This document shows, one piece after another, positions 9-63,350 of a stretch of DNA of 64,000 nt. Positions within the stretch are counted from its first letter, which is position 1. The number at the start of each line of letters is the position of its first letter. This DNA comes from an uncultured virus (IMG/VR IMGVR_UViG_3300001592_000009) (lineage: Duplodnaviria; Heunggongvirae; Uroviricota; Caudoviricetes), in IMG/VR virus record IMGVR_UViG_3300001592_000009. The stretch is one strand, 5' to 3'. The notes under the pieces are model-generated. The model was not told the origin of the DNA. It saw nothing but the letters and a program-made list of their open reading frames with translations, and ran no database searches. Position numbers and translations under genes: made by a program.

Positions 9-752
9 TCAATTGATAGCGAGCGATTCAAAAGCTTTCACGTACTTGGGCATACGGAGCTCAATGACGTCCTTGGAGTGGTGTCGTCCAATATCACAAG
101 GGGATCGACCACCGTACTGTGGCATGGGCTTCCTGCTTGCTGTACAGTACTTTTCCACATGTCCTCGCCAGAGCTGTGGATTACAACCCGCTGCAAGACC
201 ACAGGCGCGTCTGTCCTTAGCGATACGTCCGATGCCCATGTTGTGCGCTGTATCGACCATATAGAGCCGTTCCAGAGGGTCTTCCACGGACCTCAATGTC
301 TTGAGACTGTTCTTGGTCAGCAAAATACCGGAGCGGATTTGAAGATCTGGTCTCTGCCGAACATTTAGCCACGACAGCTCTCGAAGCTCATCCATGTACT
401 GCTTTCGGAGATCGGAGAGCGTATCGAAGCGTTCGGACCCATCCGGGTTCCATGTCCTGGTGATCTGAAAAAATCCCACACCTTCCTCTCGTGAGTTGAG
501 GAGTTCCGACTTCGGATTCCAACAGCGCTTGTGTTTGAGGTTCAGGCAAGACTCGTGTTCTATGAGAGCACCATAGTAGTACGGACCATAGATGTCCGGT
601 GTGTGGCGGTTCGATTCCTCGATGATGACTGGGAAGAACTGATAAGCCTGTGGCGGAATGTGGGTCTTGACGGACAACGTTTGGCCATGGACAATCCACG
701 ACACCATCAGGGTGAAAAGAAAAGCGATGAGTTTCACGGGAGATCTCCGCAT
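9..752 (-). CDS. Endolysin, lytic transglycosylase (SLT-like), with N-terminal signal peptide
   Basis: Catalytic-type motif IEHES, then EEGVGFFQIT and AHNMGIG (SLT motifs ES / G..Q / AYN.G). Hydrophobic N-terminus ending VHG-Q. Several Cys residues. Lies next to a 3-TM protein. Confidence 0.8.
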   Translation of the reverse strand: MRRSPVKLIAFLFTLMVSWIVHGQTLSVKTHIPPQAYQFFPVIIEESNRHTPDIYGPYYYGALIEHESCLNLKHKRCWNPKSELLNSREEGVGFFQITRTWNPDGSERFDTLSDLRKQYMDELRELSWLNVRQRPDLQIRSGILLTKNSLKTLRSVEDPLERLYMVDTAHNMGIGRIAKDRRACGLAAGCNPQLWRGHVEKYCTASRKPMPQYGGRSPCDIGRHHSKDVIELRMPKYVKAFESLAIN

Positions 753-798: not shown

Positions 799-1200
799 TT
801 ACTTCGTACCGAGCACAGAGGCCAGGATCACAATCGAAATAGCAACGCTAGAAAGACCGACACCAATCAAAGCCAAACCAGCGCCAGTAGAAGTCTCCAT
901 GGCCTTGGTGAAGAACACCGATAGATCCACGTAGTCGAACATGGCTCGTCGCGAGAGATGCAGCAGTGTCACGTAGAGCACGGCTGAGATCAGCAGCACG
1001 ATGGTGGCTACGAAACCTGCGGCGATCGGAAGTGCAGTTACCAGCTTGGAGTCGGGATCCGTCACGAAGAGCAGCAGCAAGGCCAAGGCGCCGAAAAACC
1101 CCATGAAGAGGTAGCGAAAGCGGATGCCTTTATGCTTGACTTCCAGGTTGGTAGGAGAATCGGGGTTGGTAGCCGGATCAGTATTTTGGTTCTCGTCCAT
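799..1200 (-). CDS. Membrane protein, putative holin
   Basis: 133 aa, three hydrophobic segments, directly upstream of the endolysin, SD AGGAG. Confidence 0.55.
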   Translation of the reverse strand: MDENQNTDPATNPDSPTNLEVKHKGIRFRYLFMGFFGALALLLLFVTDPDSKLVTALPIAAGFVATIVLLISAVLYVTLLHLSRRAMFDYVDLSVFFTKAMETSTGAGLALIGVGLSSVAISIVILASVLGTK

Positions 1201-1311: not shown

Positions 1312-1926
1312 TTAAGCTTCCCAGGTCATCGCTGGGATGAGGGCATCCACATCCGCGATACTGGTCGGAACGGGAACAGCTCCAGTGGTCACTTGCGTGA
1401 AGTAGTTCAGGAGGTTGGCCCAGATCTGATCACGCAGGGTATAGCCGCGCATGGCTTCGGCAGCAAAGCTCGGGATGGCCGAGTAGCGGTAGCCGGTCAA
1501 GTGGATGAAGTCCTTGTACTGCTTGGTGCGAGCAAACTCATCCAGCTTGACAGAGACATAGTCGCCAGCGAGGCTGTAGACGTGCTGGACCGTGGCTGGA
1601 TCGATCTCGGAGATCGATTTAGCCGTCATGGGAGCCATGGGGTCTTCGGGGTTCTGGACTTGGAAGGTGCGAAGGATCTCAGCCAGGGTCAGAGGACGTT
1701 TGGTGTATACCACATGGACCGCGTCAGGACGCACTTCAAGGGACTCATCCACCGTGCCGAACTGATCGGGAGCCGGAGCCTCTGTCTTGACGACAGGGGT
1801 GTAGAAACTCAGGGGGTGGGCACGGTTCTTGATGTGGATACGGTAGACGGGGTATTCAACAACCTTGCCGTCAACAACGCGGGCAAAGAGATCGAGATCG
1901 TTCAGAGTGACGTTGGATTGAGTCAT
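1312..1926 (-). CDS. Tail fibre assembly/chaperone-like protein
   Basis: Likely start MTQSNV. C-terminal LDEFARTKQY...SFAAEA...RDQIW pattern is typical of phage tail-fibre-associated proteins. Confidence 0.55.
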   Translation of the reverse strand: MTQSNVTLNDLDLFARVVDGKVVEYPVYRIHIKNRAHPLSFYTPVVKTEAPAPDQFGTVDESLEVRPDAVHVVYTKRPLTLAEILRTFQVQNPEDPMAPMTAKSISEIDPATVQHVYSLAGDYVSVKLDEFARTKQYKDFIHLTGYRYSAIPSFAAEAMRGYTLRDQIWANLLNYFTQVTTGAVPVPTSIADVDALIPAMTWEA

Positions 1927-1975
1927 GTATAAAGCTCCAAAGTGTTTGGTGATCGGTGTCAGAGGATCTTTGGTC

Positions 1976-3010
1976 TTAGACGAAGATCTTCCATCCAGTT
2001 GGTCCATTCCAACCATTCCAGGACCCGGAGATAGCCACTGTAGACCCATCTTGGGAGATCGCCAAATCGAAAACCGAAGATGGTGGCGAAAGAGGAACTT
2101 CTATCCAGGATCCGTTAACGTTTTTCAGCACCACTGCATATGAAGAGCCTGCAATGGCTATAGTCTTAGTGTCCTTCGACATCTTCATCAAGCCGATATA
2201 GCCGCCAAAGGAAAGCGTCACACGTCTGGTGAAGATCCATGAAGCGCCAGACCAAGAGTAGAAATCAACACCGTCACCATAACCGTTGATCATTATCGAG
2301 CCGTCGTAACTAATCGCTACAACGCCAGCTGTTGTCACGATGTTCTGTATCACATTGTAGGAACTTCCGACTTTCTTCACCGCCGCAATCTTCGACTCTA
2401 AGGGGATGCTGACTCCCCCCATGGTGCCGTCAGCACTTACAGTAGGCGGTGTGGTAGTTTGGTAACTCCCACCAAAGACAGATACCCACCCGACACCGGA
2501 GAGCTGATGATAGTAGTGCGGACTGTCTGCTGACGAGTTCATGAACCTGTATGTACTGCCACTAATTTCAGGATACTCCACCGACCCGGTCCAACTCACA
2601 AGAGTCTGCTTTTGGAACTTCCGGACACGTGACCAAGACTCTACTCCTACCGTTACAGTGTCATCATTCTCGGCTTGAGATCCGATAAGAAAGGCGTCCC
2701 CATCTGGGAAAAACCACACACTTGAACCCATGGCGTAGTCCGTCGCTCTTCCAGACACATAGCTAATTCCTTCCGATATCGTTGCTTTGAGACTCCATGC
2801 TGAATTTTCACGGTGGTGAATAGTCGCTCCAGACCACGGATATGCTGGATTTCCAAGGACTGCCAAATCACCGTTGCCGGAGAGTGACACCGGCCCATGC
2901 CCAGATCTTGCGGGATTAGGGATAAACGCCTGTTCCAGACCCTTAAAAGTCGGCTTCACCAGGGTGAATCTCTTCGCCGGACTCCACGCACTTTCTACTT
3001 CAGTAGCCAT
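1976..3010 (-). CDS. Degenerate FG-GAP-like beta-propeller protein (putative receptor-binding/appendage head)
   Basis: Start MATEVESAWS with SD AAGGA. Repeats VSLSGNG / AISYDGS / MSKDTK / AISQDGS. Paralogous N-terminus to 3061-4302. Confidence 0.65.
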   Translation of the reverse strand: MATEVESAWSPAKRFTLVKPTFKGLEQAFIPNPARSGHGPVSLSGNGDLAVLGNPAYPWSGATIHHRENSAWSLKATISEGISYVSGRATDYAMGSSVWFFPDGDAFLIGSQAENDDTVTVGVESWSRVRKFQKQTLVSWTGSVEYPEISGSTYRFMNSSADSPHYYHQLSGVGWVSVFGGSYQTTTPPTVSADGTMGGVSIPLESKIAAVKKVGSSYNVIQNIVTTAGVVAISYDGSIMINGYGDGVDFYSWSGASWIFTRRVTLSFGGYIGLMKMSKDTKTIAIAGSSYAVVLKNVNGSWIEVPLSPPSSVFDLAISQDGSTVAISGSWNGWNGPTGWKIFV

Positions 3011-3060
3011 CTTCATTCCTTTCATCCCGTGGCTCTCTGGCCACGGGAGTGTGTTTCACA

Positions 3061-4302
3061 TCAGATAAAAACGTAGGCAGCGCCAGCGTTCGTACCGCGG
3101 GGATTGGTGTTGAAGTACGCACCACCGACACAGGTCTTGCCGTCTCCGGAAAGAGAGACGGAGTATCCGAAGCGATCAGAGGTCGCACCATCGGCCGGCA
3201 GTAGCTTGGAGGTCTGCTCCCAAACAGCACCACTCTTCTTGAAAATAACAACAGCACCACTACCACTGCCTTTGTCATCGTCAAGATAGGCTCCGACAGC
3301 ACAGAACGATCCGTTGTCACTGATCGAGACAGAGTGACCGAAATAGTCTCCAGCAGAGCCGTCTGCCAACATCAGTTTGCTGTGCTGAGACCAGGTGACT
3401 CCTGAACGTGTGTAGACATACGCCGCACCTGCAGAAGTTCCCTTGGTATCGTTGCCGTAGGCTCCAGCGAGTACTGTGTTTCCGTCACCAGAGATAGAAA
3501 CGGAATACCCCAGGCTATCACCGGATGCTCCATCAGAAGCCGTCACGCGAGCCTGTTGTGACCAAGTGGTTCCGGAACGGGTGAAGACATAGACGCATCC
3601 GTGGTCTCCAGCAGTACCATAAGCGCCGACGGCGATGTCGTTACCGCTGTTCGAAAGAGAGACAGACCGGCCAAAATGCATGCTGGCATCGCTCACTGTG
3701 AGCTTTACTTGCTCTGCCCACACTGCTCCTGTGCGGACATAGATGTAGACGGCACCTGCATCGGTAGTAGGTGAATCTTCCAGATGGCGACCCACAGCCA
3801 AGGTATTCCCATCCGAACTCAGGGTGATAGAGATCCCGTACGAAGTGCCGGCTTCTGCTGCAGGCGGAAGCAGTTTCGTTTGCTGAACCCAGTCAGACCC
3901 TGACTTGACAAAGACATAGACAGATCCGCGGTTCGTACCGGAATCATCATCGTTGATAGAAGAAACGGAGACAGTGGCCCCGTCTCCGGAAATAGCCGCT
4001 GCGTAACCGAAGTTATCTCCAGACTGACCATCACTGGCTGTCAATTTTGCCTCCTGGCTCCAAACGCCGTTCTGACGGCGATAGACATAGGCGGCGCCGA
4101 CCTGACTGCCGGTAGCTCCGCTGTTCACAGACCCAATAACGCAAATGCTACCATCGTTCGATACGGAGACAGAGTTACCGAAGAAGGCACTGGCTGCGCC
4201 ATCGTTTGCCAGCAGTTTGGCTTGCTCCACACCAGAGATATCGTCACTCACCACGGTGAATCGCCGACCATTGCTCCAAGGACTCGTAATCAAAGTAGCC
4301 AT
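3061..4302 (-). CDS. FG-GAP repeat (integrin-alpha-like) seven-bladed beta-propeller protein
   Basis: Seven repeats of FG.SVS.S.DG....VGA....G.AYV(Y/F). Start MATLITSPWS with SD GAGGA. Confidence 0.9.
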   Translation of the reverse strand: MATLITSPWSNGRRFTVVSDDISGVEQAKLLANDGAASAFFGNSVSVSNDGSICVIGSVNSGATGSQVGAAYVYRRQNGVWSQEAKLTASDGQSGDNFGYAAAISGDGATVSVSSINDDDSGTNRGSVYVFVKSGSDWVQQTKLLPPAAEAGTSYGISITLSSDGNTLAVGRHLEDSPTTDAGAVYIYVRTGAVWAEQVKLTVSDASMHFGRSVSLSNSGNDIAVGAYGTAGDHGCVYVFTRSGTTWSQQARVTASDGASGDSLGYSVSISGDGNTVLAGAYGNDTKGTSAGAAYVYTRSGVTWSQHSKLMLADGSAGDYFGHSVSISDNGSFCAVGAYLDDDKGSGSGAVVIFKKSGAVWEQTSKLLPADGATSDRFGYSVSLSGDGKTCVGGAYFNTNPRGTNAGAAYVFI

Positions 4303-4347
4303 TGTTTCCTCATCTTTCATTGAAAATAAAATCGAACCACTGACCGA

Positions 4348-5166
4348 TCAGTGAGGGTCTGTCACTGTTGAGAAGTACAGTGCAGCGCTCCAGTCACCCC
4401 ATCCGCCACTCAAACCGTTGTAACGCGCTCTGGCCCAATACTCCGTGTCGTGACTCAACCCCGACACAGAGACAGTCGACGCTTGGTCGCTATAGAACAT
4501 GCTGTGCAGAGAACTGAGTCCACTGTCAGAGTAGATCTCTAACTGGATCTTTTGGGCGCTGGTGGTGAGAAGATCACCCACCCTTGAGCTGAACTCCGTC
4601 AAATAGAAGATAGGGGATGTAGATACATCATCAGAATACCACTCCATAGGGTAGATGATGGTAGGGACATCTGGACGTACGACGCTGAGGTCGATCATTG
4701 AGATCTCGTTGTTCACGCTCAACCGGATCTTACCCGAGGGACACTCCTCTACAGTTGGTAGCTTCAGTGTCAAAACGCCATCCACTAGACTGAATCTTTC
4801 AGCCATGGGAAGACTGTTGGGCTGATCCACAGTGACGTGGTAGTAAGTAAAGCTGTCGAAGTTCAGCAGTTTGTAGACGCTAAGCTCCCTTGGGGCTCCT
4901 TGGACGGACGGTGTGTAAGGGACAACCGCGTCCCCTTTCAGCCAGACAGTTCTTCCAAAGACCGAGAGCTTGTTACTGGTCTTCGACTTCAGCAAGACAC
5001 GCATGCCTAGTGACGGACTCTTCTGAATATAGAGAATGTCAGGCTCTATAACCACAGGAAGGTCCACCACCCGTTTGAATTCACGGACAACCATGGTGGA
5101 GATCTCCGATCTTGTTTTAATGGCTTTCAGAGGATTTGAGCCTCTGATCCTTTCTACTGGCAACAT
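4348..5166 (-). CDS. Virion appendage protein with C-terminal fibronectin-III-like domain
   Basis: C-terminal VSGLSHDTEYWARARY...WGDWS...FST. Confidence 0.7.
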   Translation of the reverse strand: MLPVERIRGSNPLKAIKTRSEISTMVVREFKRVVDLPVVIEPDILYIQKSPSLGMRVLLKSKTSNKLSVFGRTVWLKGDAVVPYTPSVQGAPRELSVYKLLNFDSFTYYHVTVDQPNSLPMAERFSLVDGVLTLKLPTVEECPSGKIRLSVNNEISMIDLSVVRPDVPTIIYPMEWYSDDVSTSPIFYLTEFSSRVGDLLTTSAQKIQLEIYSDSGLSSLHSMFYSDQASTVSVSGLSHDTEYWARARYNGLSGGWGDWSAALYFSTVTDPH

Positions 5167-5170
5167 AACA

Positions 5171-5201
5171 TCCAGCTCCAGGGGACGACCCTGGAGCTGG
5201 A
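5171..5201. terminator. Intergenic hairpin
   Basis: TCCAGCTCCAGGG-gacga-CCCTGGAGCTGGA, flanked by CATA and TATG. Confidence 0.6.
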
Positions 5202-5216
5202 CCTATGGCGCGACTT

Positions 5217-6446
5217 CTAGACAGCACTCTCACCTGTATAGCGTACACGAGCATACAGGACAGTGCCGGAAGGAGCACGATAGCTCGTCCTCCACGATAC
5301 CAGATCCTGGACAGACCCTGTGACGCTTCCAACGACGTTGACGAAGTTCACATCGGTAGCGATCTCCCAGTCACTACTGACATGGGACGCGTAGCCTTGC
5401 TCCACGGCAAAGCCCGAGCTGGTCAGATCATTACCCAGGTTAAACTGCTCACCATCGAGACCTGGCTTGGTCACGACAGGCTTACGGATCACCGCAGGGA
5501 GATCGATGTTTGGCTGGTAGTCCGTTGCGTTGTAGCGCACCCGACCGTAGTACTCTCCGTTCGGGAGACGGAGGGTCAGAGAGGTCAGATTCACGGTGTC
5601 TTCGTAACCAGAATACACGATGTTCGTGAAGTTACGATCACTGGCCACTTCCCAATCGCTGGAGTGATGAACACGGTCCGACATCACCCACCGGTAGTCA
5701 CACTTGGCGGTACCGGACACGACTACACCGACGCTGGTAGCGCCGTTCAAGTAGAGAGTACGGTGCGACATCGCTTTCCCGACACCGTAGACCTTTCCAT
5801 TGAACGAGATCTCCACTTTCCCGTCGATACCTTCACGACCAGAGAGATCTAGCGCTGTAGCACCTACCGGGACTGCAAGTACACCGGTGATCAGTTGTGC
5901 TTCGTTGGAGTAGCGGATACTAGAATCCACCATCCGACTGGACTGGAAGGTGAAGAGAGACTCCACACCTTGATCCAGTCCTGGCGCTGTGATCTCTGGG
6001 GTCAGAACCCCTGGCTGTGTCAATCGAATCGTGACGCTTCGACCGTTGATAGTCAAAACGAAAGATTCTCCAGACAGGGGCGCTGTGACGTACACGACTT
6101 TGTCGCCGATCTCCACCGGCAAGACTGGTACGGTACTGGCCGTGATGTTGTCGATGGCATTCTGGGCAGTGAGGCGAAAACGTGCCCGCTTCCCATACTC
6201 CACGGACCTCGGTCCGTCGATGGGATGTCCTCTGGCACCGGCTGTGAGATTGATAGAGTCTTCAGAGATGAGACCGTTCTCATCCAGCATCAGGATGCCG
6301 TTGGGAGCACCGAGCCAGCTGCGAGGGATGCCACCGAGAGCATCGACTGCGTCGCTGACCGTGCGACTCCCCGTACCACCTTTGGAGATGGGTACAGGGG
6401 ACGTGATCCGTAGTACGGGTGTTTGGTCCTGCAACTGACGCAGCAT
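5217..6446 (-). CDS. Tail fibre/appendage protein with two FnIII-like domains
   Basis: N-terminal PISKGGTG...AVDALG fibre motif. Two H.SSDWE(V/I)A.D.NF.N.V ... Y.RVRY repeats. Confidence 0.75.
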   Translation of the reverse strand: MLRQLQDQTPVLRITSPVPISKGGTGSRTVSDAVDALGGIPRSWLGAPNGILMLDENGLISEDSINLTAGARGHPIDGPRSVEYGKRARFRLTAQNAIDNITASTVPVLPVEIGDKVVYVTAPLSGESFVLTINGRSVTIRLTQPGVLTPEITAPGLDQGVESLFTFQSSRMVDSSIRYSNEAQLITGVLAVPVGATALDLSGREGIDGKVEISFNGKVYGVGKAMSHRTLYLNGATSVGVVVSGTAKCDYRWVMSDRVHHSSDWEVASDRNFTNIVYSGYEDTVNLTSLTLRLPNGEYYGRVRYNATDYQPNIDLPAVIRKPVVTKPGLDGEQFNLGNDLTSSGFAVEQGYASHVSSDWEIATDVNFVNVVGSVTGSVQDLVSWRTSYRAPSGTVLYARVRYTGESAV

Positions 6447-6458
6447 GGATCAGCCTCC

Positions 6459-6797
6459 TCAGGCTTCGTCGCTGACGTAGTCCACACGCACTACGACACC
6501 GGGACCAGCCTGCACCCAGATCACTTCGCCTTCACCGATGATCCGGCAGCTGTGTTCCAGGTGACCGTTGTTCTTCTCGATGTGGGCGTACTCGATGCGG
6601 TCCACCAGAGAAGGACTGCTGCCATCCGGAGCAGCCCAGAGTCTCGATCGTGCGATTGGTCGTGGTGTNCGCCGGATCGTTGGACTGTGTTCGTATTCGA
6701 TGGCCATGATGTGCATNGNCACATACGAGCCTGCCGGGATCTGACCCACGCGCTGTACCGTACCGTCCGTGATCAGTTTGTTCAGAAGTCCGCTCAT
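6459..6797 (-). CDS. Hypothetical virion-cluster protein (112 aa)
   Basis: ATG with SD AAGGA. Two of its three Ns fall at third codon positions of this frame. Fills the gap to the next gene. Confidence 0.65.
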   Translation of the reverse strand: MSGLLNKLITDGTVQRVGQIPAGSYVXMHIMAIEYEHSPTIRXTPRPIARSRLWAAPDGSSPSLVDRIEYAHIEKNNGHLEHSCRIIGEGEVIWVQAGPGVVVRVDYVSDEA

Positions 6798-7563
6798 GAG
6801 AGTTCCTTGTAAGTGAAAAGAAAAAGAGATCCGTCAAGGACGGAGGTTCAGAAGCATCAATGACCTGGCGCAACGTGATATACTTCTCCAGAGGCTGAAG
6901 AGTCATCACTTCTTCATCTGTCGCCATCTCCAGATTAGCAACCTTACCCAAACCCACAGAACTCGCAGTCTGGTGGTGTAGGTCGTAATCCAGGATGTGG
7001 GCTGCCATCATCGCAGGAATCTCGTTAGGACGAGCGAGGATGGCTTCCTCGATGGCTTGGAGGCGCAGGAGGAGAGCCCCGTGTCCTTCGATATCCGTGA
7101 CAGGGTGTGGATGCTCCGTCGGAGGGAAGATCTCCTGGACGTTGGTGAGTCGATCCCACCAAGTCGTGCGACGGTTGTAGACACTCTCCAACAACCGCTC
7201 ATAGACATAGTCCACATCCGCACACCACTCACCACCCACGGTCTGGTAGCGAAGACGGATCGTGCCTTCCACCAGTCGGTTGGTAATGCAGAGACCGCCG
7301 TAGACGGGCTTCCCGGTGGAGCGGGTAGCCGCCATGTAAGGGAGGGAGCAATAGTAGTCTGCACCTTCCTCCATGGGACTCGCTACACCCATGACATCCA
7401 CGTGCTCCACAAGGAGGTTGTGGAGATAAAATGGAGCGAACGTAGGGATGAGGATGCGGTATGTGTCGTCGTTGATCTCGGTCAGGGTGTGGAGTTCGTT
7501 CTCCACCAGGTTGCTAGCAGCCAACCCTGTCAAGTCCAACGGATAAACTGGTGTAGTCACCAA
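6794..7563 (-). CDS. phiKZ-like tail/baseplate structural protein (3' end uncertain)
   Basis: YPLDLTG...SNLVENE.H N-terminus and FAPFY, YQTVGG, VGLGKVAN motifs are recurrent in phiKZ-like tail proteins. As sequenced the frame runs on to 6532, but it probably ends near 6800. Confidence 0.65.
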
Positions 7564-7675
7564 AGTCCTCCAATCTCTGCGTTAAAATGGACAAGTCGCA
7601 CGGGTCACAGCCGTGAGGACTCTTTTCAAACATTCAAGTGCCAGGGGCACCTCACACCATATGGACGGCCTGTCT

Positions 7676-8923
7676 ATGTATACTTATCTCTCTTCTCGCG
7701 TCCTTCCCAACCAGACAAACGCCCAGTGGCTCGATGTGGATATCTCCATGACCATCGTCAGAGATATCTTTGTCGATTATCGAGAGATCTATCTCAAACT
7801 GAACCGGGATGGTGTTGAGATCTTTGTTGACCTGAACCAGCTGAGGACCAGGTACGCTAGTTACAACAACCGTCTCTCAGTACTTCTCCAGTCTCTGGGG
7901 AACACAGGCCTCGACACTGTGGCAGGTTTCCCTGAAGGCCAGAACCACTTTGCCATCTACCAGAATGCTTTCAGGGTAGGTTATTCCGCCAAACTGTCGG
8001 AGCGCGGTGTATACCACCCTCCCGGCTATCCTCGTGAACTTCTTCCGGACATTGAACTGACTCGTGCGTTACAACCCACGGATCTCTCCCTCCTGCACAG
8101 CCATTGTCTGGTCTCTGTCAACGGCTACTACCACATGACAGACACAGATGGACAGCGAGCTTGGGTCGTCGACGGCGGCAAGTCCACCCAGGCTTCTGCC
8201 ACGGGACACATCGGCATCTTTAGCTTCGTATCCGTCGGTAAGCTCCACAAGGAAGCGATCAATATCTCCGCGATCACCCCCTCCGATACCGGTAAGCCGT
8301 TGTTTGAAGGAGTCGTCATCCACACGACCCGACCCGTCGTAGACAACTCCTTCTTTCTGGTGCTGGGCGGGTACCTGGTCTTTCCACAGGACCAAGTCTT
8401 CTGGCAGATTACAGAGACCAGCTTTGGCATCCGTCTGAAGGAGCTCCGCTATCTGGAGCGTATCTCAGAAAGTCTGCGGTACATCAACCTGGACAAGCTG
8501 GAACTGACCGCTTCCGTGATCCATCAACAACTTCTGAACGTCGATGAACTGACATCTGATGCGGTGATCCGAAAGTACTTTGGTCTGAGTCAGTCGTTCT
8601 TCGTCTCCGTAGAAGCACCTCCTCTGTTCGTGAACAAGAAGTTCTTGCGTCAGATGCGCGCCCCTGGCATCTTCACCGCCTTTCAGGAACCGAAGTACCC
8701 GCTCATCATGGGTTCAGGTCGTGCTGTGGAGTATTGGAAGGTCAACGAAGGTCAGTACTGGTCTGTCAGCGCAGCCGATAGTTTCTACCGCAACTACATC
8801 TTTGATCGACAGCACATGCGAACCCTGTCGAACGTCACCCCCAGTAACTCGTTTGATCGACCTTTCTTCTACAGCCAAGGCATGCTGCTGGAAGTCGGTG
8901 TCTTCAAGCCCCAAACCCCTTGA
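7676..8923 (+). CDS. Conserved phiKZ-like virion structural protein
   Basis: Long ORF with likely start MYTYLSS. Motifs CLVSVNGYYH and LVLGGYL are recalled from phiKZ-like structural proteins. Confidence 0.6.
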   Translation: MYTYLSSRVLPNQTNAQWLDVDISMTIVRDIFVDYREIYLKLNRDGVEIFVDLNQLRTRYASYNNRLSVLLQSLGNTGLDTVAGFPEGQNHFAIYQNAFRVGYSAKLSERGVYHPPGYPRELLPDIELTRALQPTDLSLLHSHCLVSVNGYYHMTDTDGQRAWVVDGGKSTQASATGHIGIFSFVSVGKLHKEAINISAITPSDTGKPLFEGVVIHTTRPVVDNSFFLVLGGYLVFPQDQVFWQITETSFGIRLKELRYLERISESLRYINLDKLELTASVIHQQLLNVDELTSDAVIRKYFGLSQSFFVSVEAPPLFVNKKFLRQMRAPGIFTAFQEPKYPLIMGSGRAVEYWKVNEGQYWSVSAADSFYRNYIFDRQHMRTLSNVTPSNSFDRPFFYSQGMLLEVGVFKPQTP

Positions 8924-8939
8924 CCCTTAGGAGGCTATC

Positions 8940-10274
8940 TTGCGTCAATTCTACCACTCGTCTCACGACAAGTCTAACAACCTTCTTCCGATCACTCTGG
9001 GTGGTTTTGGAACCGATAACCTGGAAGATGCGGCAAACGTACTGGATGCGCTCAGATACAGGGATCTGAACCGTCCCGGAGGCGCTGCTATCCTCGGGGA
9101 AAACGGAGAGTTTCCAACCCACCTGCTTCCCCTTGGCTATCTTCCCGATAACTTCGTCGCGCTGCACGGACCTTCCAGCATCCCGAAGCTTGGCACCGCG
9201 ATCTTCAAGATCAGCAACTACGATGAGAAGACTACTTACTCTATCGTCACAGAGAACGGCAAAGCCTACCAGTATGGTGATCAGATCGCTTTTGCAGCAG
9301 GTGTGGTGGTAGGAGCAGCCTCTCTCTCCATCAACGGAGCTGTCTATGTGATCCAGGTCACCAGCACATCTCCATCCTCTCCTACGGTGATCAGTCCGCT
9401 TCAGGACAGCGCCAACCATGAAGCCAGCGTGAGTTTCATGTCTTCCACGTTTGCGTCTCCGCAGATCCCGGATCAGCATGCGGATTCGGACTGGCAACTC
9501 GCTGCCGACAGTGATTTTCTGTCAGTTGTACAGCAGAGCCTTAACGACACAGTCAACACCACTAGCTGGACTGTCACAGGACTGAGTCCGAATACCCAGT
9601 ACTACCTGCGAGTGCGTCACAAGAGTCTCTCCACAGGCCCTAGTCCTTGGAGTCCTTCTCTGCGCTTCTCCACGCGATCGTTCCAAGTGGTTCAACCGAC
9701 GACCATCACATCGCCTGTCAACGGGGCTCTGAACGTAGATACACGCCTCACGGTTACGACAGCAGGCTACGTGGGGGGTGGCGGTACCGACTACCATACA
9801 ACCACGGACTGGGAGGTCGCTACCGATGTCTCCTTCAACACGGTGGTTTGGAACAGCTATGCTGATCCGGTCAACAAGACGAGTGTCAAGATCACCAGCC
9901 TTCCTTACGACTCTCTCTTCTACATTCGGTCACGCCATAACAGCAGCGTCACAGGCACAGGTCCGTGGTCTCCCGTGGTGAGCTTCCGCACCTTGACAGG
10001 CGCCCAGCTGAGCACACCGTCCATCACGGTACCTGTCACCAATGGCTCTGAGCTAGAGCAAGGGGCGGCAGTTACGTCCTCTAACTTCATTGTTTCCGCA
10101 GGCTATGCCACGCATACCAAAACGGTTTATGAGATCGCCACCGACGCAGCGTTCTCTAACATCGTGGCCAGCAGCCCCGGTGCGAGCCCTGTCACCTCCT
10201 GGGTTCCGTCGAGCTTGACGATCGGACAGGAGTACTACGTTCGTGTCAAGTACAAGGCCAACCAGAACCAGTGA
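8940..10274 (+). CDS. Tail fibre/appendage protein with three FnIII-like domains (paralog of 5217-6446)
   Basis: PITLGGFG...AANVLD N-terminus. Three repeats H..(S/T).(W/Y)(Q/E).A.D..F ... Y.R.(R/K). SD AGGAGG with TTG start. Confidence 0.8.
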   Translation: MRQFYHSSHDKSNNLLPITLGGFGTDNLEDAANVLDALRYRDLNRPGGAAILGENGEFPTHLLPLGYLPDNFVALHGPSSIPKLGTAIFKISNYDEKTTYSIVTENGKAYQYGDQIAFAAGVVVGAASLSINGAVYVIQVTSTSPSSPTVISPLQDSANHEASVSFMSSTFASPQIPDQHADSDWQLAADSDFLSVVQQSLNDTVNTTSWTVTGLSPNTQYYLRVRHKSLSTGPSPWSPSLRFSTRSFQVVQPTTITSPVNGALNVDTRLTVTTAGYVGGGGTDYHTTTDWEVATDVSFNTVVWNSYADPVNKTSVKITSLPYDSLFYIRSRHNSSVTGTGPWSPVVSFRTLTGAQLSTPSITVPVTNGSELEQGAAVTSSNFIVSAGYATHTKTVYEIATDAAFSNIVASSPGASPVTSWVPSSLTIGQEYYVRVKYKANQNQ

Positions 10275-10288
10275 TCTGAATCAACTGC

Positions 10289-10335
10289 CAGCATAGGGCT
10301 AGGAGGGGCTATACGCCCCTCCTAGCCCTATGTAC
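10289..10335. terminator. Bidirectional hairpin terminator, TRTG class
   Basis: CATAGGGCTAGGAGGGGC / GCCCCTCCTAGCCCTATG, 18-bp stem between convergent genes. Confidence 0.8.
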
Positions 10336-12230: not shown

Positions 12231-12593
12231 TTACTTCTCCAGTGCTTTCTTTTCCTCCAACACCCGCTTCTCTTCCTTGGCGTTGTACTCGTCAATCAAC
12301 GCCTTCTGCTTCTCCAGAGAAGTCTTGATGCTGCGTTTATCGATGGTGCAGTTTTTGGTGTGTTTGTACTGCTCGATCACCANNCGNGTCAGATGGTCTT
12401 CCCGCTCATCCATGCTCATCTTGAGATACTCAGGGCGAGTAACCGNGGGTTCGATCTTGCAGTCTTCCAGGAGAACAGGGTCGACAGAGACTGTCTTCCA
12501 ACTGTTCTTCTCCACCACCACAACCTTGATGGTCTCGCAGCCTGCCATGAACAAAGCCAGCAGGCTGATACACGCGATCTTCAGAAAGTTCAT
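12231..12593 (-). CDS. Lipoprotein, putative outer-membrane spanin (Rz1-like)
   Basis: Signal peptide with lipobox MAGC, two further Cys, 4-nt overlap with the upstream TM coiled-coil gene. Confidence 0.75.
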   Translation of the reverse strand: MNFLKIACISLLALFMAGCETIKVVVVEKNSWKTVSVDPVLLEDCKIEPXVTRPEYLKMSMDEREDHLXXXVIEQYKHTKNCTIDKRSIKTSLEKQKALIDEYNAKEEKRVLEEKKALEK

Positions 12594-13198
12594 GTCANNT
12601 CCTTAGAGAGAAGAATGGGGTTCAGGTCACTGAAANTACATCGCTCCTCATGGAGCCAGTCCAACCNAGAGTAGTGNGAGAGCTCAGGCAGCTGAAGGGT
12701 AGCTCCTNTGGGAGCACTNCCCTTGTTCTCCTTCGGCTTCACTTCCGCTGGCGCTGGAGCGATTTCAGCCACCTCTTGGTAAACAGCGAACANCACATCG
12801 TANCGCTTCATGCTNTCNCTCTCTTCAGCCTCCACCACCGGTTTGGACGGATCGCGTTTCTTGGGCACAGGGAGAGCCGTCGATAGCTTTTTGATGCGAT
12901 CCTCCAGCTTATCGATAGTGCGCTCGCGTTCCAAGATAACCTGCTGGTTGACCTGGGTCGTATCCTGCATTAGTTTGATCTCTCGATCCTTTTGCTCGAG
13001 TGCTTTGGCCAGCTGCTCAACCTTTTCATTAGCCTGCCGGAGTTCTTCGGTCTTGGTGTTGAGGAGACCCTGCACACGCTCCGTCTCCGCTTTCTCTTTG
13101 GACGAACCGTGGCTGTAGCCAATGAAACCGATGATCCCTGCGATCACCAGCGTTGCGATCCCTCCGATGAGAAAGGATCCTCTCTGTTTGTTTTGCAT
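12590..13198 (-). CDS. Putative inner-membrane spanin (Rz-like)
   Basis: Single N-terminal TM followed by a long coiled coil. Start MQNKQR with SD GGAGG. Confidence 0.7.
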   Translation of the reverse strand: MQNKQRGSFLIGGIATLVIAGIIGFIGYSHGSSKEKAETERVQGLLNTKTEELRQANEKVEQLAKALEQKDREIKLMQDTTQVNQQVILERERTIDKLEDRIKKLSTALPVPKKRDPSKPVVEAEEXXSMKXYDVXFAVYQEVAEIAPAPAEVKPKENKXSAPXGATLQLPELXHYSXLDWLHEERCXFSDLNPILLSKXXT

Positions 13199-13199
13199 T

Positions 13200-13784
13200 T
13201 CACCCTCCTGTGAACAGTTCAGATTTGGTCTTGAGCCACGCATAACCGACTGCTGTAGCGTCGATCGCGTGCTCATCGAGATGGTCGATACCTCTAGGGA
13301 AATGCTCCATGATCAACGGAGTCTTCTCTACAGCTTCTTTGACGATCTCTTTCCCCTTGATTCCAGCTACACCCAAGGACTTCTTCACAGCCTGGGGCGC
13401 AAGCTTCTGGAACCGCACCATGCGATTGTATCGCAAGACTTCGTCATAGAGTGTCGTAAGGACCTCGCTAAGGATCTGAAAGCTGTTAGGTTTCTTGCGA
13501 TCAAAGAACGGGCTCTCGGTGACCACGATGTCGGGGCGGTAGATCTCCAACCAAGCTCTTAACCCTCTCCCCATTTGAAGACGCTTGATGACGCGTTCCT
13601 CGTGAACCTCGTCGTCGATACCACTGTCGTCGATCAGCCGTATAGCTTTCAAGGTCCCTGCTTCAATACCCAGGACCTTGCAATCATACTGGTCGATGCG
13701 ATAGACAGAAACCCCGGTGTTATTCAAGCCTGGATCAAGGAACAGGGCGTTGAACACCCGATGGGTCTCTGGTCTACTCTGCAT
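13200..13784 (-). CDS. ruvC: RuvC-like Holliday junction resolvase
   Basis: FLDPGLNNTG, VVTES, PQAVKK and EHAIDATAVG catalytic motifs. Confidence 0.9.
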   Translation of the reverse strand: MQSRPETHRVFNALFLDPGLNNTGVSVYRIDQYDCKVLGIEAGTLKAIRLIDDSGIDDEVHEERVIKRLQMGRGLRAWLEIYRPDIVVTESPFFDRKKPNSFQILSEVLTTLYDEVLRYNRMVRFQKLAPQAVKKSLGVAGIKGKEIVKEAVEKTPLIMEHFPRGIDHLDEHAIDATAVGYAWLKTKSELFTGG

Positions 13785-35112: not shown

Positions 35113-38044
35113 ATGGATTACAGCAACTACACCACCACACCTGTCTCCAAGGTCGCTAGCGACATGGAGCTTTTCAAGCGCGACCCTACAGCCCTGACAC
35201 AGTCCGCCCTAGAGACTGTGGAGTCTATCCTGAATGGAGAGGCAACCTTGATGTCCCCCGGATCGCCCTTCATCATGCTGATGGAGATGGCCTGCGTGAC
35301 ATCCGCCAACGCTGTTCGGGAGAACCTGGTCTTGCTGCGTCGACAGTACCCCATGCTCTCTATCACCAGCGATGAGATCTACCATCACATGGCAGACGAA
35401 GACTATCTGGGGAGGTTCTCTGTTCCGGCAGAGCTGGAAGTCGTCTTGGCGATCCAGGTTCAAGGTCTGATCAACGGCATGGTGCGGGATGAGTCTGAAA
35501 ACGCATGGAAGGCGATCCTTCCTCGTGACACCTCCATCACGGTAGACGGCATCACTTTCATGCCTCTCTACCCTATCGTTCTTCGGCGCTACGATAACGG
35601 GATCTTACAGATCAACTACGACTCTACCTACCTGAACCCGGTGATGCCTCTGAGGGACTCCATCATCACCCCAGAGATCCGTACGACGGTCTCTGGAGAC
35701 GAATGGGTGTTTCTCAAAATCAAGACAACACAGGTAAAGCTGGAACCGCATTACTTCACGGTCGACAAGACCTATCGGTTCAAGAAGTCTGTAGTGATGG
35801 AGGATCAGTTCCACCACGCTCGTGTTTACTTCCGCAACGACGCATCGAACCGAGCTTGGGTGGAGATGAGGACTACGCACAGCGAACAGACCTTCGATGC
35901 ACGTCACCCCACTGCCGTTTTGAAAGTAGATAACTCCAACAGTGACTGTGGAGATCCCTGTCGTTTATCTGACTTCTGGTCTGTTGTCCGGTGAAGTGCG
36001 CATGGATGTCCTACACCTCCAAGGGAGAGATCCATGTCAAACATGGCGGACTATCGCCCAGAGCAATACACGAGTGGCGTTGACAGCGATCGATGCAGAG
36101 CGTGATTCATCCGTTTACACGCTGGCGATGGCGGATGTCTCGTACTACGCTTACAGTCTGGACAGCGTGAACGACGGCAAGAACGGCATGGATTTCAACA
36201 CCCTGCGCAAGAACGTCATCTACAACGCAGACGGTCCACAGAACCTTCCGATCACCAACGTGCAGTTGTCTGCCAGTGGAACCAAGAACAACTTCGAGAT
36301 CGTCAAGAACGTCGACATGTTGACTAATCGGGTTTACCTGGCTACACGGAAGCTACCGCAGCCCAAGAACTCCAGTTTGATCACCTCGGCCAGCATCGGT
36401 ATCGTCACCATGACGAGCACGTTGGAGAGTCTCAAACTCAACCACCGCGTCATCGACAATGGCCACCGTGTCACGATCAAGAGCAAGTCTCTGTTTGAGA
36501 GCATCAACGGACAGTTGAAGCTACTGAGCCAGAGTGAGCAGGACGCATTGCAAGCCATGGGGCCTTCATCCATGGTCACGCATGTCAACAATCGCCACTA
36601 TCTTTACAGTCCGTTCTACTGCGTTTTGGATAACACGGAGGGTACGTTCGAACAGCGTGTCTATTCCCTGGACCAGCCGTTGGCTAAGGATCTGAACATC
36701 CTGCGTCAGAACCATACCTTGCAGTTGTTCGTGAATACGGGTAGCTATGAGCTCAAGAAGACCAACGACGGTTACAGTCTCAAAGTGCTAACTCGCAGTA
36801 GCAACCACTACATCGCTCTGCAAGACAACGAGGTCGGTGTTCAGCTGGCTTACTATCCCCACCATGAGACGACTCTCGCATACATCAACGGGGTGTTGGA
36901 GAGCAAGAACGCCAATGGTGAGCGACTCTATCGCTTCGACATCCAGTCCAGTCACGACTTCAATGTTGAGAACTCCATGGAGATCACGAACAGCGAAGTA
37001 CAGGGCGTGGTGTCCTATAAGGGTTGGGTTGAACTGGAGAAACAGGTCTATCTCATCCACCATACCACCAGCATCAGTACCAACTACCGAGCTGATGAAA
37101 CAGATGGACTTCTTGGCAAGTTCCTACTTCCATCCGGCAGTGTAGGCAATACCTTGGAACGCCTTACTCTGCACTTCGGTGATAGCCTGGATCTGCTGTG
37201 GTCTCGTGCCCGATCATTCTTGACAGACCCGGTCTACCAGACCCACTCTGTCGACATCCCGCTTCTCTACACGGAGACCCAATACGGGAAGGATCCGGTT
37301 ACTGGAAGTATCTTCGACTCGAACATGAACTACATCGTTAAAGCCTATGCTGGCGATCAGGTCATGGATGAGGATGGTAACCCGGTCTACAAACACCGTG
37401 TCGGTGATGTGGTGTTGAATGAACAGGGTCAGCCTGTGATCTCCGCATCCAGTGTCACGGGTCGAGAGTTCGATCTACTGGTGGTGGATGGTCGCTATCT
37501 CTTCGCCAATGACTTGGTCTACACCGACTACCGTACAGAAATCGATAAGCTCCTGACAACGTGGATCACCAAGAACGTACAGGAGCATCAGAACGATCTG
37601 CTTGAGATCACGAAGATCTACTTCTACCCTCGAACGACTATCGGTCTCACCAGGGTCTACACGGAGAACCACGGTTCGGTGTTCATTCCGTCGGAACAAG
37701 CGTTTACCGTAGAGCTCCATGTGCAGAAAGACATTTTCGAGAACCTGGACATCCGAAAAACGCTTCGGAGGACCACCATTCAAATTCTGGACGCTGCTGT
37801 ATCTGAATCGAGCATCAATATGACCGCTGTCAAGGATACGCTCAGGAAGGCCTACGGTGCCTCTGTCGATGCTTTTGAAGTGACAGGATTGGGCGGTAGT
37901 GAGAACTATCAACTGGTGACGGTTTCTTCGAACGAATACCGTCTCTGTCTCAAGAAGAAGCTGGAGATCGCTCCAGACCGCAGCTATGTGGTCACGGACG
38001 ATGTCAATGTGGAGTTCAAGCTCTCTGCAAACAAAGTGATGTAA
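35113..38044 (+). CDS. Large baseplate-wedge-like structural protein (phiKZ gp87-like), one gene split here by indels at 35935-36075
   Basis: ORFs 35113-35994 and 35942-38044 join into a ~975-aa protein if four single-base insertions are removed. Confidence 0.7.
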
Positions 38045-63218: not shown

Positions 63219-63350
63219 CGTTTTCTCTTTCTTTCGATTGTAGGACTGTGCACAGTCCCATTGTTTCCAGGAGTTTTGGGAAAAGGGTACTCCAAGCTGA
63301 CCCATTGCTACTAACCTAACCTACGACATCCGTAAGGCGTCGTCAAGTAG

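What the first reader, a model, noticed from the sequence alone, without database searches (positions are those of the whole stretch)
1976..10274. Split fibronectin-III domains: possible plug-and-socket appendage assembly by donor-strand complementation
Seen: complete FnIII repeats here end with Y.R.R(H/Y)...(S/G).WS....F.T (SPWSPSLRFST, GPWSPVVSFRT, GDWSAALYFST). The last repeats of two scaffold proteins stop just before this strand (…YARVRYTGESAV* at 5217; …YVRVKYKANQNQ* at 10274), and the first repeat of 5217-6446 also lacks it. Two separately translated beta-propeller genes, each with its own SD, begin with the missing strand: MATLITSPWSNGRRFTV (4302) and MATEVESAWSPAKRFTL (3010). Known: strand complementation assembles chaperone-usher pili. 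Inference: interchangeable propeller heads dock onto incomplete FnIII sockets, giving a modular receptor-binding system. I do not know of this being described in phages.
Basis: partly seen in the sequence, partly recalled or inferred. Interest (0 to 1): 0.85.

Follow-up and report, generated by a model that had tools for sequence, protein, structure and literature searches.

The report
Split-domain connector joining phage fibre heads
In a giant phage from wastewater, the receptor-binding "heads" of the tail fibres are made as separate proteins that carry the one missing beta-strand of the fibre's last domain, so heads probably snap onto fibres by completing that fold and can be swapped as gene cassettes.

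Summary
The window is a phiKZ-like nucleus-forming jumbo phage. Two fibre scaffold genes (8940-10274 +, 5217-6446 -) end 5-6 residues after the F strand of their last FnIII domain. Two propeller genes (start codons 4302 and 3010, - strand) begin with the missing G strand.

Nine fused homologues run unbroken through this point, so the genes were split in the F-G loop. The truncated ends are kept in 6 of 6 and 4 of 4 close relatives, down to 49% identity. The 26-residue plug plus linker sits on at least four different heads. Contigs from independent metagenomes show no indels at the stops and starts.

A complex model places head residues 8-26 antiparallel to the scaffold F strand: ipSAE 0.77, best control 0.00. 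Halves of a split gene can pass this test by likeness alone.

No recombinase or junction repeats support a DNA-inversion alternative. My best reading is non-covalent strand complementation used as a modular head connector, at about 0.75 confidence. I found no description of it in six literature searches. It is a new variant of known principles.

The parts
8940..10274 (+). Scaffold fibre gene A (444 aa): N-terminal GG.G anchor-like region, an Ig-like domain, two complete FnIII repeats (9375-9680, 9690-9998) and a terminal FnIII lacking strand G
   Evidence: ORF; fn3 26.4 bits against cutoff 25; PhoD_N 39.2; Pur_ac_phosph_N 37; AF2 model pLDDT 74.5, G strands at residues 241-245 and 347-351, last strand of repeat 3 is 433-440
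10005..10271 (+). Socket A3: terminal FnIII of A (residues 356-444), ending 6 residues after strand F; stop codon 10272-10274
   Evidence: (6 of 6 relatives at 49-98% identity end at the same point)
10292..10332 (.). Perfect 18-bp-stem hairpin just after the stop of A, between convergent genes (terminator-like)
   Evidence: (I5)
5217..6446 (-). Scaffold fibre gene D (409 aa): KGGTG N-terminal motif, beta-rich middle, then two FnIII-like repeats that both lack the WS....F.T strand
   Evidence: 4 of 4 relatives end ..RVR[YH]..E..V; AF2 model of D uninformative, pLDDT 48.9
5220..5492 (-). Socket D2: terminal FnIII of D (residues 319-409). It is the closest relative of socket A3 among the six FnIII-like domains
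   Evidence: A3-D2 reciprocal best, score 135, 41% over 79 aa
5514..5738 (-). D1: internal FnIII-like repeat without a G strand (possible third socket, unproven)
   Evidence: In relative P0157 strand F is followed directly by DPPPPPEPEPE, which cannot form a beta-strand
5171..5201 (.). 12-bp-stem hairpin (7-nt loop) just after the stop of D
   Evidence: read from sequence; contigs of X16 break here (table 7)
4348..5166 (-). Gene E: tandem Ig/FnIII-like protein ending in a complete FnIII (GDWSAALYFST, 4366-4398). The start is uncertain (ATG 5166 or ATG 5094). It is a present/absent cassette in the population
   Evidence: Atlas record starts at M25; joint 4392->5076 in X8 DNA and X16
3061..4302 (-). 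Head gene F (413 aa): N-terminal plug plus linker, then a seven-repeat FG-GAP propeller
   Evidence: PF14312, 7 stretches, 7.5e-96; relatives all start at this Met; aligns to residues 228-643 of fused P0010
4243..4302 (-). Plug of F (MATLITSPWSNGRRFTVVSD): the donated G strand
   Evidence: only residues 8-26 of the 419-aa numbering touch the socket, antiparallel to A 426-443
1976..3010 (-). Head gene G (344 aa): N-terminal plug plus linker, then a divergent propeller-like head. It is a present/absent or replaceable cassette
   Evidence: joint 1966->3024 in X16; unlike sequence beyond 2943 and 1973
2951..3010 (-). Plug of G (MATEVESAWSPAKRFTLVKP)
   Evidence: first 26 aa 82% mean pairwise identity across 6 proteins, heads otherwise weakly alike or unalike. 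The two listed variant positions in the plug, 2990 and 2963, are synonymous (table 3, codons read)
3024..3046 (.). 7-bp-stem hairpin between the stop of F and the ribosome-binding site of G. The G-cassette joint lies at its edge
   Evidence: read from sequence; table 5
6532..7563 (-). Gene C: phiKZ gp131-family fibre N-terminal domain. Its 3' part is garbled in the window
   Evidence: phrog_2163 1.1e-46, residues 3-232; 220 phage records, 2-4 paralogous places in most listed rows; one extra base at 6641
7613..8923 (+). Gene B: conserved phiKZ-like virion protein next to the fibre genes
   Evidence: phrog_3337 4.6e-66; 158 phage records

Best explanation
This is the tail-fibre module of a phiKZ-like jumbo phage. 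An ancestral one-piece fibre had an N-terminal anchor, FnIII repeats and a C-terminal FG-GAP propeller head. It was split by gene fission in the F-G loop of the last FnIII domain. Scaffolds A and D therefore end in a six-stranded FnIII "socket" with an exposed F-strand edge. Each head (F, G) is translated separately and starts with about 20 residues that form the missing G strand, followed by a short conserved linker. During virion assembly the head's N-terminal strand inserts antiparallel to strand F, next to strand A. This completes the FnIII sandwich and tethers the propeller non-covalently at the fibre tip. Because the connector is only a conserved 5' gene segment of about 80 nt, head genes can be gained, lost or replaced as cassettes downstream of the plug. 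That diversifies receptor binding without touching the scaffold. Shown: the split position, its conservation, the cassette polymorphism and the mosaic heads. Inferred: physical docking, its stoichiometry and which head fits which socket.
For: (1) Split point. In alignment A4, 9 of 9 fused homologues (627-661 aa) run through YY.RVRY.......S.WS....F.TK and on into the propeller. The A and D fragments stop 4-5 residues after strand F. F and G begin 2-3 columns earlier with ATLITSPWS and ATEVESAWS. F residues 4-419 align to P0010 residues 228-643 at 48% identity, and A aligns to P0010 18-253. Eight of the 33 homologues of A carry FG-GAP_2 in one chain.
(2) Both broken ends are under selection. A relatives: 6 of 6 at 49-98% identity end at the same place. 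D relatives: 4 of 4 at 49-100%. Of the 13 F relatives aligned, 12 have an N-terminus; 11 of these begin with the F-type plug and 1 (P0054) with the G-type plug. P0077 lacks the N-terminus. In the F family, plug plus linker is 84% identical pairwise, against 73% for the head and 68% for blade 1.
(3) Mosaic heads. The G-type plug heads 6 proteins: G, P0167, P0172, P0181, P0054 and the 51-aa P0168. The first 26 aa average 82% identity. P0054, P0172 and P0181 match G at 32-38% identity over their matched stretches, which lie in the N-terminal 90-147 residues.
(4) Population data. Contigs from four studies show no indel at the D stop or the F and G starts. They do show a clean 683-nt loss of E (X8 DNA, X16) and a 1057-nt skip of G (X16). 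They also show sequence that turns unlike just after the G plug, at 2943.
(5) Model. ipSAE 0.79/0.77/0.77 against a best control of 0.00. That mark was reached by 116 of 157 solved complexes and 2 of 215 mismatched pairs. The three runs share at least 94% of contacts and the partner's pLDDT is at least 88. Only F residues 8-26 touch, pairing 432-21, 435-18 and 437-15, which is antiparallel to strand F, plus A-strand residues 354-375. Socket pLDDT is 86-87 with F and 48-67 in the two controls where unrelated proteins replaced F.
(6) The AF2 model of A alone has G strands in repeats 1 and 2 but nothing in the G position of repeat 3.
(7) Each head gene has its own ribosome-binding site and ATG. 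Hairpins follow the stops of A and D.
(8) No close solved homologue exists. The PDB sequence search found 0 hits for F and only weak FN3 hits for A.
Against: Nothing here measures binding. The complex test is known to pass halves of a split gene by likeness to the intact fold. It also used my own shallow alignments (8 and 14 rows), so its calibration holds only roughly. AF2 models socket A3 confidently without the plug (block pLDDT 74-92), so the six-stranded domain might be stable on its own. Only one of the four possible socket-plug pairs was modelled. The D model failed (pLDDT 48.9). There are three candidate sockets (A3, D2, D1) but only two plugs in the 64-kb window, and the rest of the genome is not held. 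Whether these proteins are in the virion is inferred from neighbouring phiKZ-type fibre genes, not shown.
Confidence: 0.75

Rival explanations
1. The split is a decaying relic. The truncated FnIII domains are stable six-stranded ends. The heads attach to the virion elsewhere, or are soluble, and the N-terminal strand is vestigial or serves only as a recombination handle at the DNA level.
For: AF2 folds socket A3 confidently without a seventh strand. No binding was measured. G and E are dispensable in some population variants.
Against: The plug is conserved at the protein level more strongly than the adjacent blades. Both listed variant positions in the G plug are synonymous. Socket ends are conserved down to 49% identity. 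The heads have no other anchor domain: only residues 8-26 of F contact the scaffold in the model and the rest is propeller.
Confidence: 0.12
2. The N-terminal strand belongs to the propeller itself, as a closure ("velcro") strand or a folding or targeting element. Its likeness to an FnIII G strand is then incidental.
For: Many beta-propellers close the ring with an N-terminal strand (recalled knowledge, not tested here).
Against: In fused homologues the same segment (S.WS....F.T plus linker ..EQAKL) lies inside the FnIII domain, upstream of the propeller. The complex model puts it on the socket, not on the propeller. The same plug serves propellers that are only weakly alike or unalike.
Confidence: 0.05
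3. Scaffold and head are joined at the nucleic-acid or translation level, for example by a Mu/P1-like invertible segment, deletion, read-through or frameshift, so that a single polypeptide is made.
For: A lies on the opposite strand to F and G, a geometry that an inversion could exploit. Invertible tail-fibre segments are known in Mu and P1 (recalled).
Against: No serine or tyrosine recombinase appears in the 11 + 49 ORFs scanned against Pfam. The only inverted repeats linking the regions are the homologous coding stretches themselves, at 71-79%. The heads keep their own ribosome-binding site and ATG in all relatives. No contig joins the D end to an F or G start. Reading through the stops gives no G strand (read). 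Hairpins follow both stops.
Confidence: 0.03
4. The stops and starts are assembly or sequencing errors in a low-quality metagenomic consensus.
For: The window has 41 scattered N's and one demonstrable extra base at 6641.
Against: Contigs of four runs from four studies cover the D stop and the F and G starts without indels. Independent protein records reproduce the same ends and starts.
Confidence: 0.01

Closest known systems
Donor-strand complementation/exchange in chaperone-usher pili (recalled from the literature; no paper on it was read here)
   Same: An Ig-like sandwich lacks its C-terminal G strand. The strand is supplied by the N-terminal extension of another polypeptide, running antiparallel to strand F so that a canonical fold results.
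   Different: No chaperone or usher is present. There is no polymerisation, only a terminal head on a fibre. The domain is FnIII of phage origin and arose by fission of a once-continuous gene, with fused homologues still extant. Assembly is cytoplasmic.
phiKZ gp131 and paralogues gp132-135 (passages of PMC13250141 read)
   Same: Same virus group, and the same module next to a gp131-type N-terminal domain gene (C here). A distal seven-bladed propeller is proposed to bind the host.
   Different: In gp131 the anchor and the propeller are one chain. Here the propeller is a separate gene joined through a split FnIII. F has no sequence match in the PDB.
Branched or adaptor-mounted receptor-binding proteins (Ackermannviridae TSP complexes, G7C gp63.1/gp66, DT57C LtfA/LtfB; the first two recalled, passages of PMC10713586 read for DT57C)
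   Same: Separately encoded receptor-binding modules dock non-covalently onto a virion-bound fibre through a conserved N-terminal part, allowing module exchange.
   Different: Those use whole folded docking domains. Here the connector is a single beta-strand that completes the partner's fold.
Beta-strand exchange between contractile sheath subunits (passages of PMC13266070 read)
   Same: Strand donation between phage-type structural proteins is an established assembly principle.
   Different: That is homotypic lattice building, not the attachment of exchangeable receptor-binding heads, and it does not complete a split FnIII.
Engineered split-domain tags such as SpyTag/SpyCatcher (recalled)
   Same: A terminal strand is removed from an Ig-like domain and supplied in trans as a short tag.
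   Different: That system is engineered and covalent (isopeptide). No such chemistry is indicated here.

Membership tests
Fibronectin type III domain (Pfam PF00041 and FN3-like PF16655/PF16656) | Profile match above the curated cutoff | tested here: met
   protein A: fn3 26.4 bits (cutoff 25), PhoD_N 39.2 (30), Pur_ac_phosph_N 37 (30). Weak matches to solved FN3 chains, E 0.003-0.008. D alone scores below cutoff (PhoD_N 15.8).
Fibronectin type III domain | Seven-stranded sandwich with a C-terminal G strand in the same chain | tested here: not met
   Met for A repeats 1 and 2 and for the C-terminus of E. Not met for A3, D2 and D1: the chain ends or turns into linker 5-6 residues after strand F.
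FG-GAP beta-propeller (PF14312) | Repeated FG-GAP_2 profile matches forming a 7-blade propeller | tested here: met
   F: 7 stretches, E 7.5e-96. G: no Pfam match, but its Atlas model resembles FG-GAP propellers at TM 0.75-0.81, so G is inconclusive.
Chaperone-usher donor-strand complementation system | Acceptor Ig-like fold lacking strand G, completed by a partner's N-terminal strand | tested here: inconclusive
   The missing strand is shown. Completion in trans is supported only by a model: ipSAE 0.77 against a best control of 0.00.
Chaperone-usher donor-strand complementation system | Dedicated periplasmic chaperone and outer-membrane usher; subunit polymerisation | tested here: not met
   No PapD-like chaperone or usher family appears among the 11 + 49 window ORFs scanned with Pfam. 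The heads carry a plug but no socket, so no chain can grow.
phiKZ gp131-type fibre protein | gp131-like N-terminal segment and C-terminal propeller in one polypeptide | tested here: not met
   The gp131-family N-terminal domain is in gene C. The propellers are separate genes.
Invertible tail-fibre segment (Mu G / P1 C type) | Site-specific invertase, inverted crossover sites at the constant/variable junction, and variable parts without their own start | tested here: not met
   No recombinase. No junction inverted repeats other than coding homology. The heads have a ribosome-binding site and ATG.
Chimalliviridae (phiKZ-like nucleus-forming phages) | Chimallin, phiKZ-type major capsid protein, internal head proteins, split multisubunit RNA polymerase | tested here: met
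   PF25677 chimallin 3e-15, PF25620 MCP 1.4e-149, PF12699 7.9e-28, phrog_2962 RNAP beta 4.6e-89.

The most novel reading that the evidence does not exclude
The plug and socket form a promiscuous, general connector. Any plug-bearing head can occupy any of three sockets: A3, D2 and the internal D1, which would give a branched fibre. One virion population would then display combinatorial mixtures of heads. Head cassettes (G, E and unlike heads seen behind the same plug in wastewater contigs) would be gained, lost and swapped at the roughly 80-nt plug-coding segment. This would be a natural split-domain docking system for diversifying phage host range, one that arose by gene fission and then spread to the second scaffold by duplication of the socket domain (A3 and D2 are reciprocal best matches).
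Probability: 0.35. Interest if true: 0.78.

Novelty: new variant of a known kind. Interest (0 to 1): 0.63.

Why it matters
Phage host range is set by receptor-binding modules, and how those modules are mounted limits how fast they can be exchanged. Here the mounting element appears to be reduced to one beta-strand that completes the partner's FnIII fold. That would be the smallest natural docking device I know of for a phage receptor-binding protein. It is a rare case where fused and split forms of the same fibre both survive, so the fission event can be read directly. It also gives a concrete, cheap test (co-expression, peptide competition, cryo-EM of the fibre tip) of strand complementation outside bacterial pili. 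In addition, it explains why annotation pipelines see "truncated" FnIII fibres and orphan FG-GAP proteins in such genomes.

Tried and rejected
- **Near-identical DNA in INPHARED:** no match. tblastn of A and E found nothing useful. tblastn of F found only distant FG-GAP proteins. The best of these, Vibrio phage nt-1 ORF127, starts with an unrelated N-terminus.
- **IMG/VR:** protein scans with A and B found no relatives. Two back-translated plug patterns gave 0 matches.
- **JGI metagenome scan with fused P0010:** it returned 29 loci. The three inspected (L007, L012, L017) hold large cellular FG-GAP proteins, not phage fibres. The 229-kb contig of P0010 itself was not recovered, so its phage nature is unconfirmed.
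- **Whole genome:** not held, so other plug-bearing genes outside the window could not be sought.
- **AF2 of D:** failed (pLDDT 48.9, 5-row alignment). It says nothing about D1 or D2.
- **G against fused P0166:** no significant similarity, so ancestry could not pair D with G.
- **Plug role for the N-terminus of E** (MVVREFKR.. before a DLPVVIEP linker): considered by eye only, with no support.
- **RNA-library contig depth over D against F and G:** not interpretable as expression.
- **Earlier findings of this scan:** none for this genome.
- **Literature:** six searches for strand complementation or split domains in phage fibres found no description. The library lacks most subscription journals, so this is not proof of absence.


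Full report
**What the window is.** Profile scans identify a phiKZ-like, nucleus-forming jumbo phage. The markers are:
- chimallin at 61299-63305 (-);
- a phiKZ-type major capsid protein at 54172-56382 (-);
- internal head protein, gp91-like protein and tail tube protein;
- a DnaB-like helicase and RNA polymerase beta pieces.

No cultured phage is close. There is no megablast match, and conserved virion proteins share 33% identity or less with Pseudomonas, Ralstonia, Erwinia and other phiKZ-like phages. The sequence is a metagenomic consensus with 41 isolated N's. Near-identical DNA occurs in a hydrocarbon metagenome and in wastewater metagenomes and metatranscriptomes, across 8 studies.

**Anatomy of 1976-10274.** The genes on the minus strand, in order, then the plus strand:
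- **C (6532-7563):** its first ~230 residues are the gp131-family fibre N-terminal domain (phrog_2163, 1.1e-46; 220 phage records, 2-4 paralogous places in most listed rows).
- **D (5217-6446):** 409 aa.
- **E (4348-5166 or 4348-5094).**
- **F (3061-4302):** 413 aa, seven FG-GAP_2 repeats, E 7.5e-96.
- **G (1976-3010):** 344 aa.
- **B (7613-8923, plus strand):** phrog_3337.
- **A (8940-10274, plus strand):** 444 aa.

A passes the Pfam thresholds for fn3 and for two FN3-like families.

A motif scan of all six frames finds the G-strand signature in only five long ORFs. Three are internal: two in A and one at the C-terminus of E. Two sit at the very N-termini of F and G. A ends ...EYYVRVKYKANQNQ* and D ends ...LYARVRYTGESAV*, which is 5-6 residues beyond strand F. 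The first FnIII-like repeat of D also lacks the signature. F and G have their own ribosome-binding sites: GAGGA 4 nt before ATG 4302, and AAGGAA 5 nt before ATG 3010. Hairpins follow the stops of A (18-bp stem, 10292-10332) and D (12-bp stem, 5171-5201).

**It is a gene fission in the F-G loop.** Among 33 homologues of A, eight proteins of 627-661 aa carry FG-GAP repeats in the same chain. Others carry gp38-like glycine-rich heads or DUF1566-type heads. I aligned nine fused proteins with the A and D socket fragments and with F and G. The fused chains run continuously through YY.RVRY - loop - S.WS....F.TK - linker (..EQAKL) - propeller. The A and D fragments stop just after strand F. F and G start two to three columns earlier. 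Pairwise, F residues 4-419 match residues 228-643 of fused P0010 at 48% identity, and this includes the plug and linker. The N-terminal half of A matches P0010 18-253 at 35%.

**Both broken ends are maintained.**
- Six of six relatives of A, at 49-98% identity, end at the same position. A seventh, at 33%, ends six residues later and also lacks the WS strand.
- Four of four relatives of D, at 49-100% identity, end ..RVR[YH]..E..V.
- All also keep D1 without a G strand. In P0157, strand F of D1 runs straight into DPPPPPEPEPE, followed by an extra, complete FnIII.
- Of the 13 close relatives of F aligned, 12 have an N-terminus. Eleven of these start with the F-type plug and one (P0054) with the G-type plug. 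P0077 lacks the N-terminus.
- Plug plus linker is 84% identical pairwise, against 73% for the head and 68% for the first blade, counting 12 sequences after dropping the N-truncated P0077 and the C-truncated P0009.

**The plug is a portable module.** An exhaustive HMMER search with G found 28 proteins. Seven of them match from their first residues with the plug. The G-type plug MATE[VI]ESAWSPAKRFTLVKPTFKGLEQ heads G, its 64% homologue P0167, an F-like propeller (P0054), two other weakly FG-GAP-like heads (P0172, P0181) and a 51-aa fragment (P0168). P0188 combines an F-type plug with the G-type linker. The first 26 residues average 82% identity across the six proteins compared. P0054, P0172 and P0181 match G at only 32-38% identity over their matched stretches, which lie in the N-terminal 90-147 residues.

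**Population evidence.** I laid contigs of four runs from four studies on 1900-6660: X1 hydrocarbon, X5 and X8 wastewater DNA, and X16 wastewater RNA library.
- The D stop, the F start and the G start are covered without indels, for example by X5 records 19 and 21 and by X8 records 23, 28 and 30.
- Two joints appear. The first, 4392->5076, removes 683 nt of E. It is seen in X8 DNA, where record 28 is continuous across it (941 + 76 = 1017 letters), and in X16.
- The second, 1966->3024, skips the whole G gene in X16. Whether other sequence replaces G there is not known.
- One X16 contig matches the G plug region and turns unlike at 2943. One X5 contig turns unlike at 1973, the end of G.
- The two listed variant positions inside the G plug, 2990 and 2963, are third-codon and synonymous, by my reading.

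Heads therefore behave as cassettes bounded by the plug and by intergenic hairpins.

**Structure models.**
- *Complex of A 352-444 with F 7-419.* It scored ipSAE 0.79/0.77/0.77, with all three controls at 0.00. That mark was reached by 116 of 157 solved complexes and 2 of 215 mismatched pairs. The runs agree in at least 94% of contacts and the partner's pLDDT is at least 88.
- *Interface.* Only F residues 8-26 touch the socket. The register is 432-21, 435-18 and 437-15, which is antiparallel to strand F. There are further contacts to residues 354-375 (strands A and B). This is the canonical G-strand position. The socket's pLDDT is 86-87 with F, against 48-67 in the two controls where unrelated proteins replaced F.
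- *Caveats.* The tool itself warns that halves of a split gene tend to pass by likeness to the intact fold. My own shallow alignments were used. No close solved homologue exists.
- *A alone.* AF2 (pLDDT 74.5) shows G strands in repeats 1 and 2 (residues 241-245, 347-351). In repeat 3 the last strand is F (433-440), with nothing in the G position. No internal substitute strand is predicted, but the model also suggests the six-stranded domain may be stable alone.
- *D alone.* The model was unusable.

**Alternatives.**
- *DNA inversion or deletion (Mu/P1 type).* No recombinase appears among the 60 ORFs scanned. There are no junction repeats beyond coding homology. The head start signals are conserved, and no joining contig was seen.
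- *Read-through of either stop.* This yields no G strand (read).
- *Assembly error.* Excluded for D, F and G, and for A by independent protein records.
- *Vestigial split.* It remains possible, but it fits poorly with protein-level conservation of a 20-residue strand across otherwise divergent heads.

**Pairing.** This is unresolved.
- A plus F together resemble fused P0010.
- In variants without E, D is followed directly by F.
- The two terminal sockets, A3 and D2, are each other's best match among the six FnIII-like domains (score 135, 41% over 79 aa). This suggests one socket type that was duplicated, and possibly promiscuous docking.
- D1 may be a third socket, or it may be a six-stranded variant buried in the fibre.

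**Comparison with what is known.**
- *phiKZ.* Passages of the phiKZ structural atlas (PMC13250141) describe fibres built from gp131 and its paralogues, which share N-terminal segments. [quoted passage not shown] That is the one-chain counterpart of what is split here.
- *Sheath subunits.* Strand exchange is established for contractile sheath subunits (passages of PMC13266070).
- *Pili.* Strand donation is also established, from my own recollection, for chaperone-usher pili.
- *Branched receptor-binding complexes.* These use whole docking domains (DT57C passages, PMC10713586; others recalled).
- *Literature search.* Six full-text searches found no report of a phage receptor-binding head attached by completing a split FnIII domain. 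The library is incomplete.

**Verdict.** It is a new variant of known principles: modular attachment of receptor-binding proteins, and donor-strand complementation.

Noticed in passing
window 6459-6800 (gene C 3' part and small ORF 6459-6797, - strand): Contigs of X1, X5 and X16 all lack one base that the window has at 6641. N's lie at 6669, 6717 and 6719. The 3' part of C reads like out-of-frame sequence. A 112-aa ORF with a strong ribosome-binding site (AAGGA, ATG 6797) overlaps it. The true gene structure between C and D is therefore uncertain in this window.
   Followed up: partly
window 4392-5076: A 683-nt deletion removes almost all of gene E in contigs of X8 (DNA) and X16. In those variants D is followed directly by F. 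The breakpoint at 4392 lies in the Trp codon of E's own G strand.
   Followed up: partly
window 1966-3024, also 2943 and 1973: One X16 contig skips the whole G gene. The breakpoints lie 10 nt after its stop and at the edge of the F-G intergenic hairpin. Other contigs keep the G plug and then diverge, which points to different heads behind the same plug.
   Followed up: partly
window 5171-5219: In D's frame the codons after its TAG stop read KSRHRSSSRVVPWSWMLCCQ*. A PWS tripeptide is encoded by the right arm of the post-D hairpin. It may be chance or a relic of the lost G strand.
   Followed up: no
window 35113-35994 and 35942-38044 (+): Two overlapping ORFs match consecutive parts (positions 4-267 and 269-966) of one 970-position PHROG profile (phrog_3248). 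This could be another split gene, a frameshift or a sequencing error.
   Followed up: no
window 12383-12818: A cluster of 15 N's within about 440 nt, across ORFs 12231-12593 and 12590-13276. It is probably a polymorphic or poorly resolved stretch of the consensus.
   Followed up: no
window 1312-2049 (-), 799-1200 (-), 9-752 (-): Three genes downstream of G have no family match. They are a 197-245 aa protein, a small protein that looks membrane-spanning by eye, and a 247-aa secreted-looking protein. Any role in fibre assembly or lysis is untested.
   Followed up: no
window 13200-13784 (-): A RuvC-like endonuclease (PF02075, E 3.2e-05, 24.3 bits against cutoff 22.2). It is the only recombination-related family found in the window.
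   Followed up: no
whole window: Near-identical DNA occurs in hydrocarbon and wastewater metagenomes and in wastewater RNA libraries, across 8 studies. The host is unknown.
   Followed up: no
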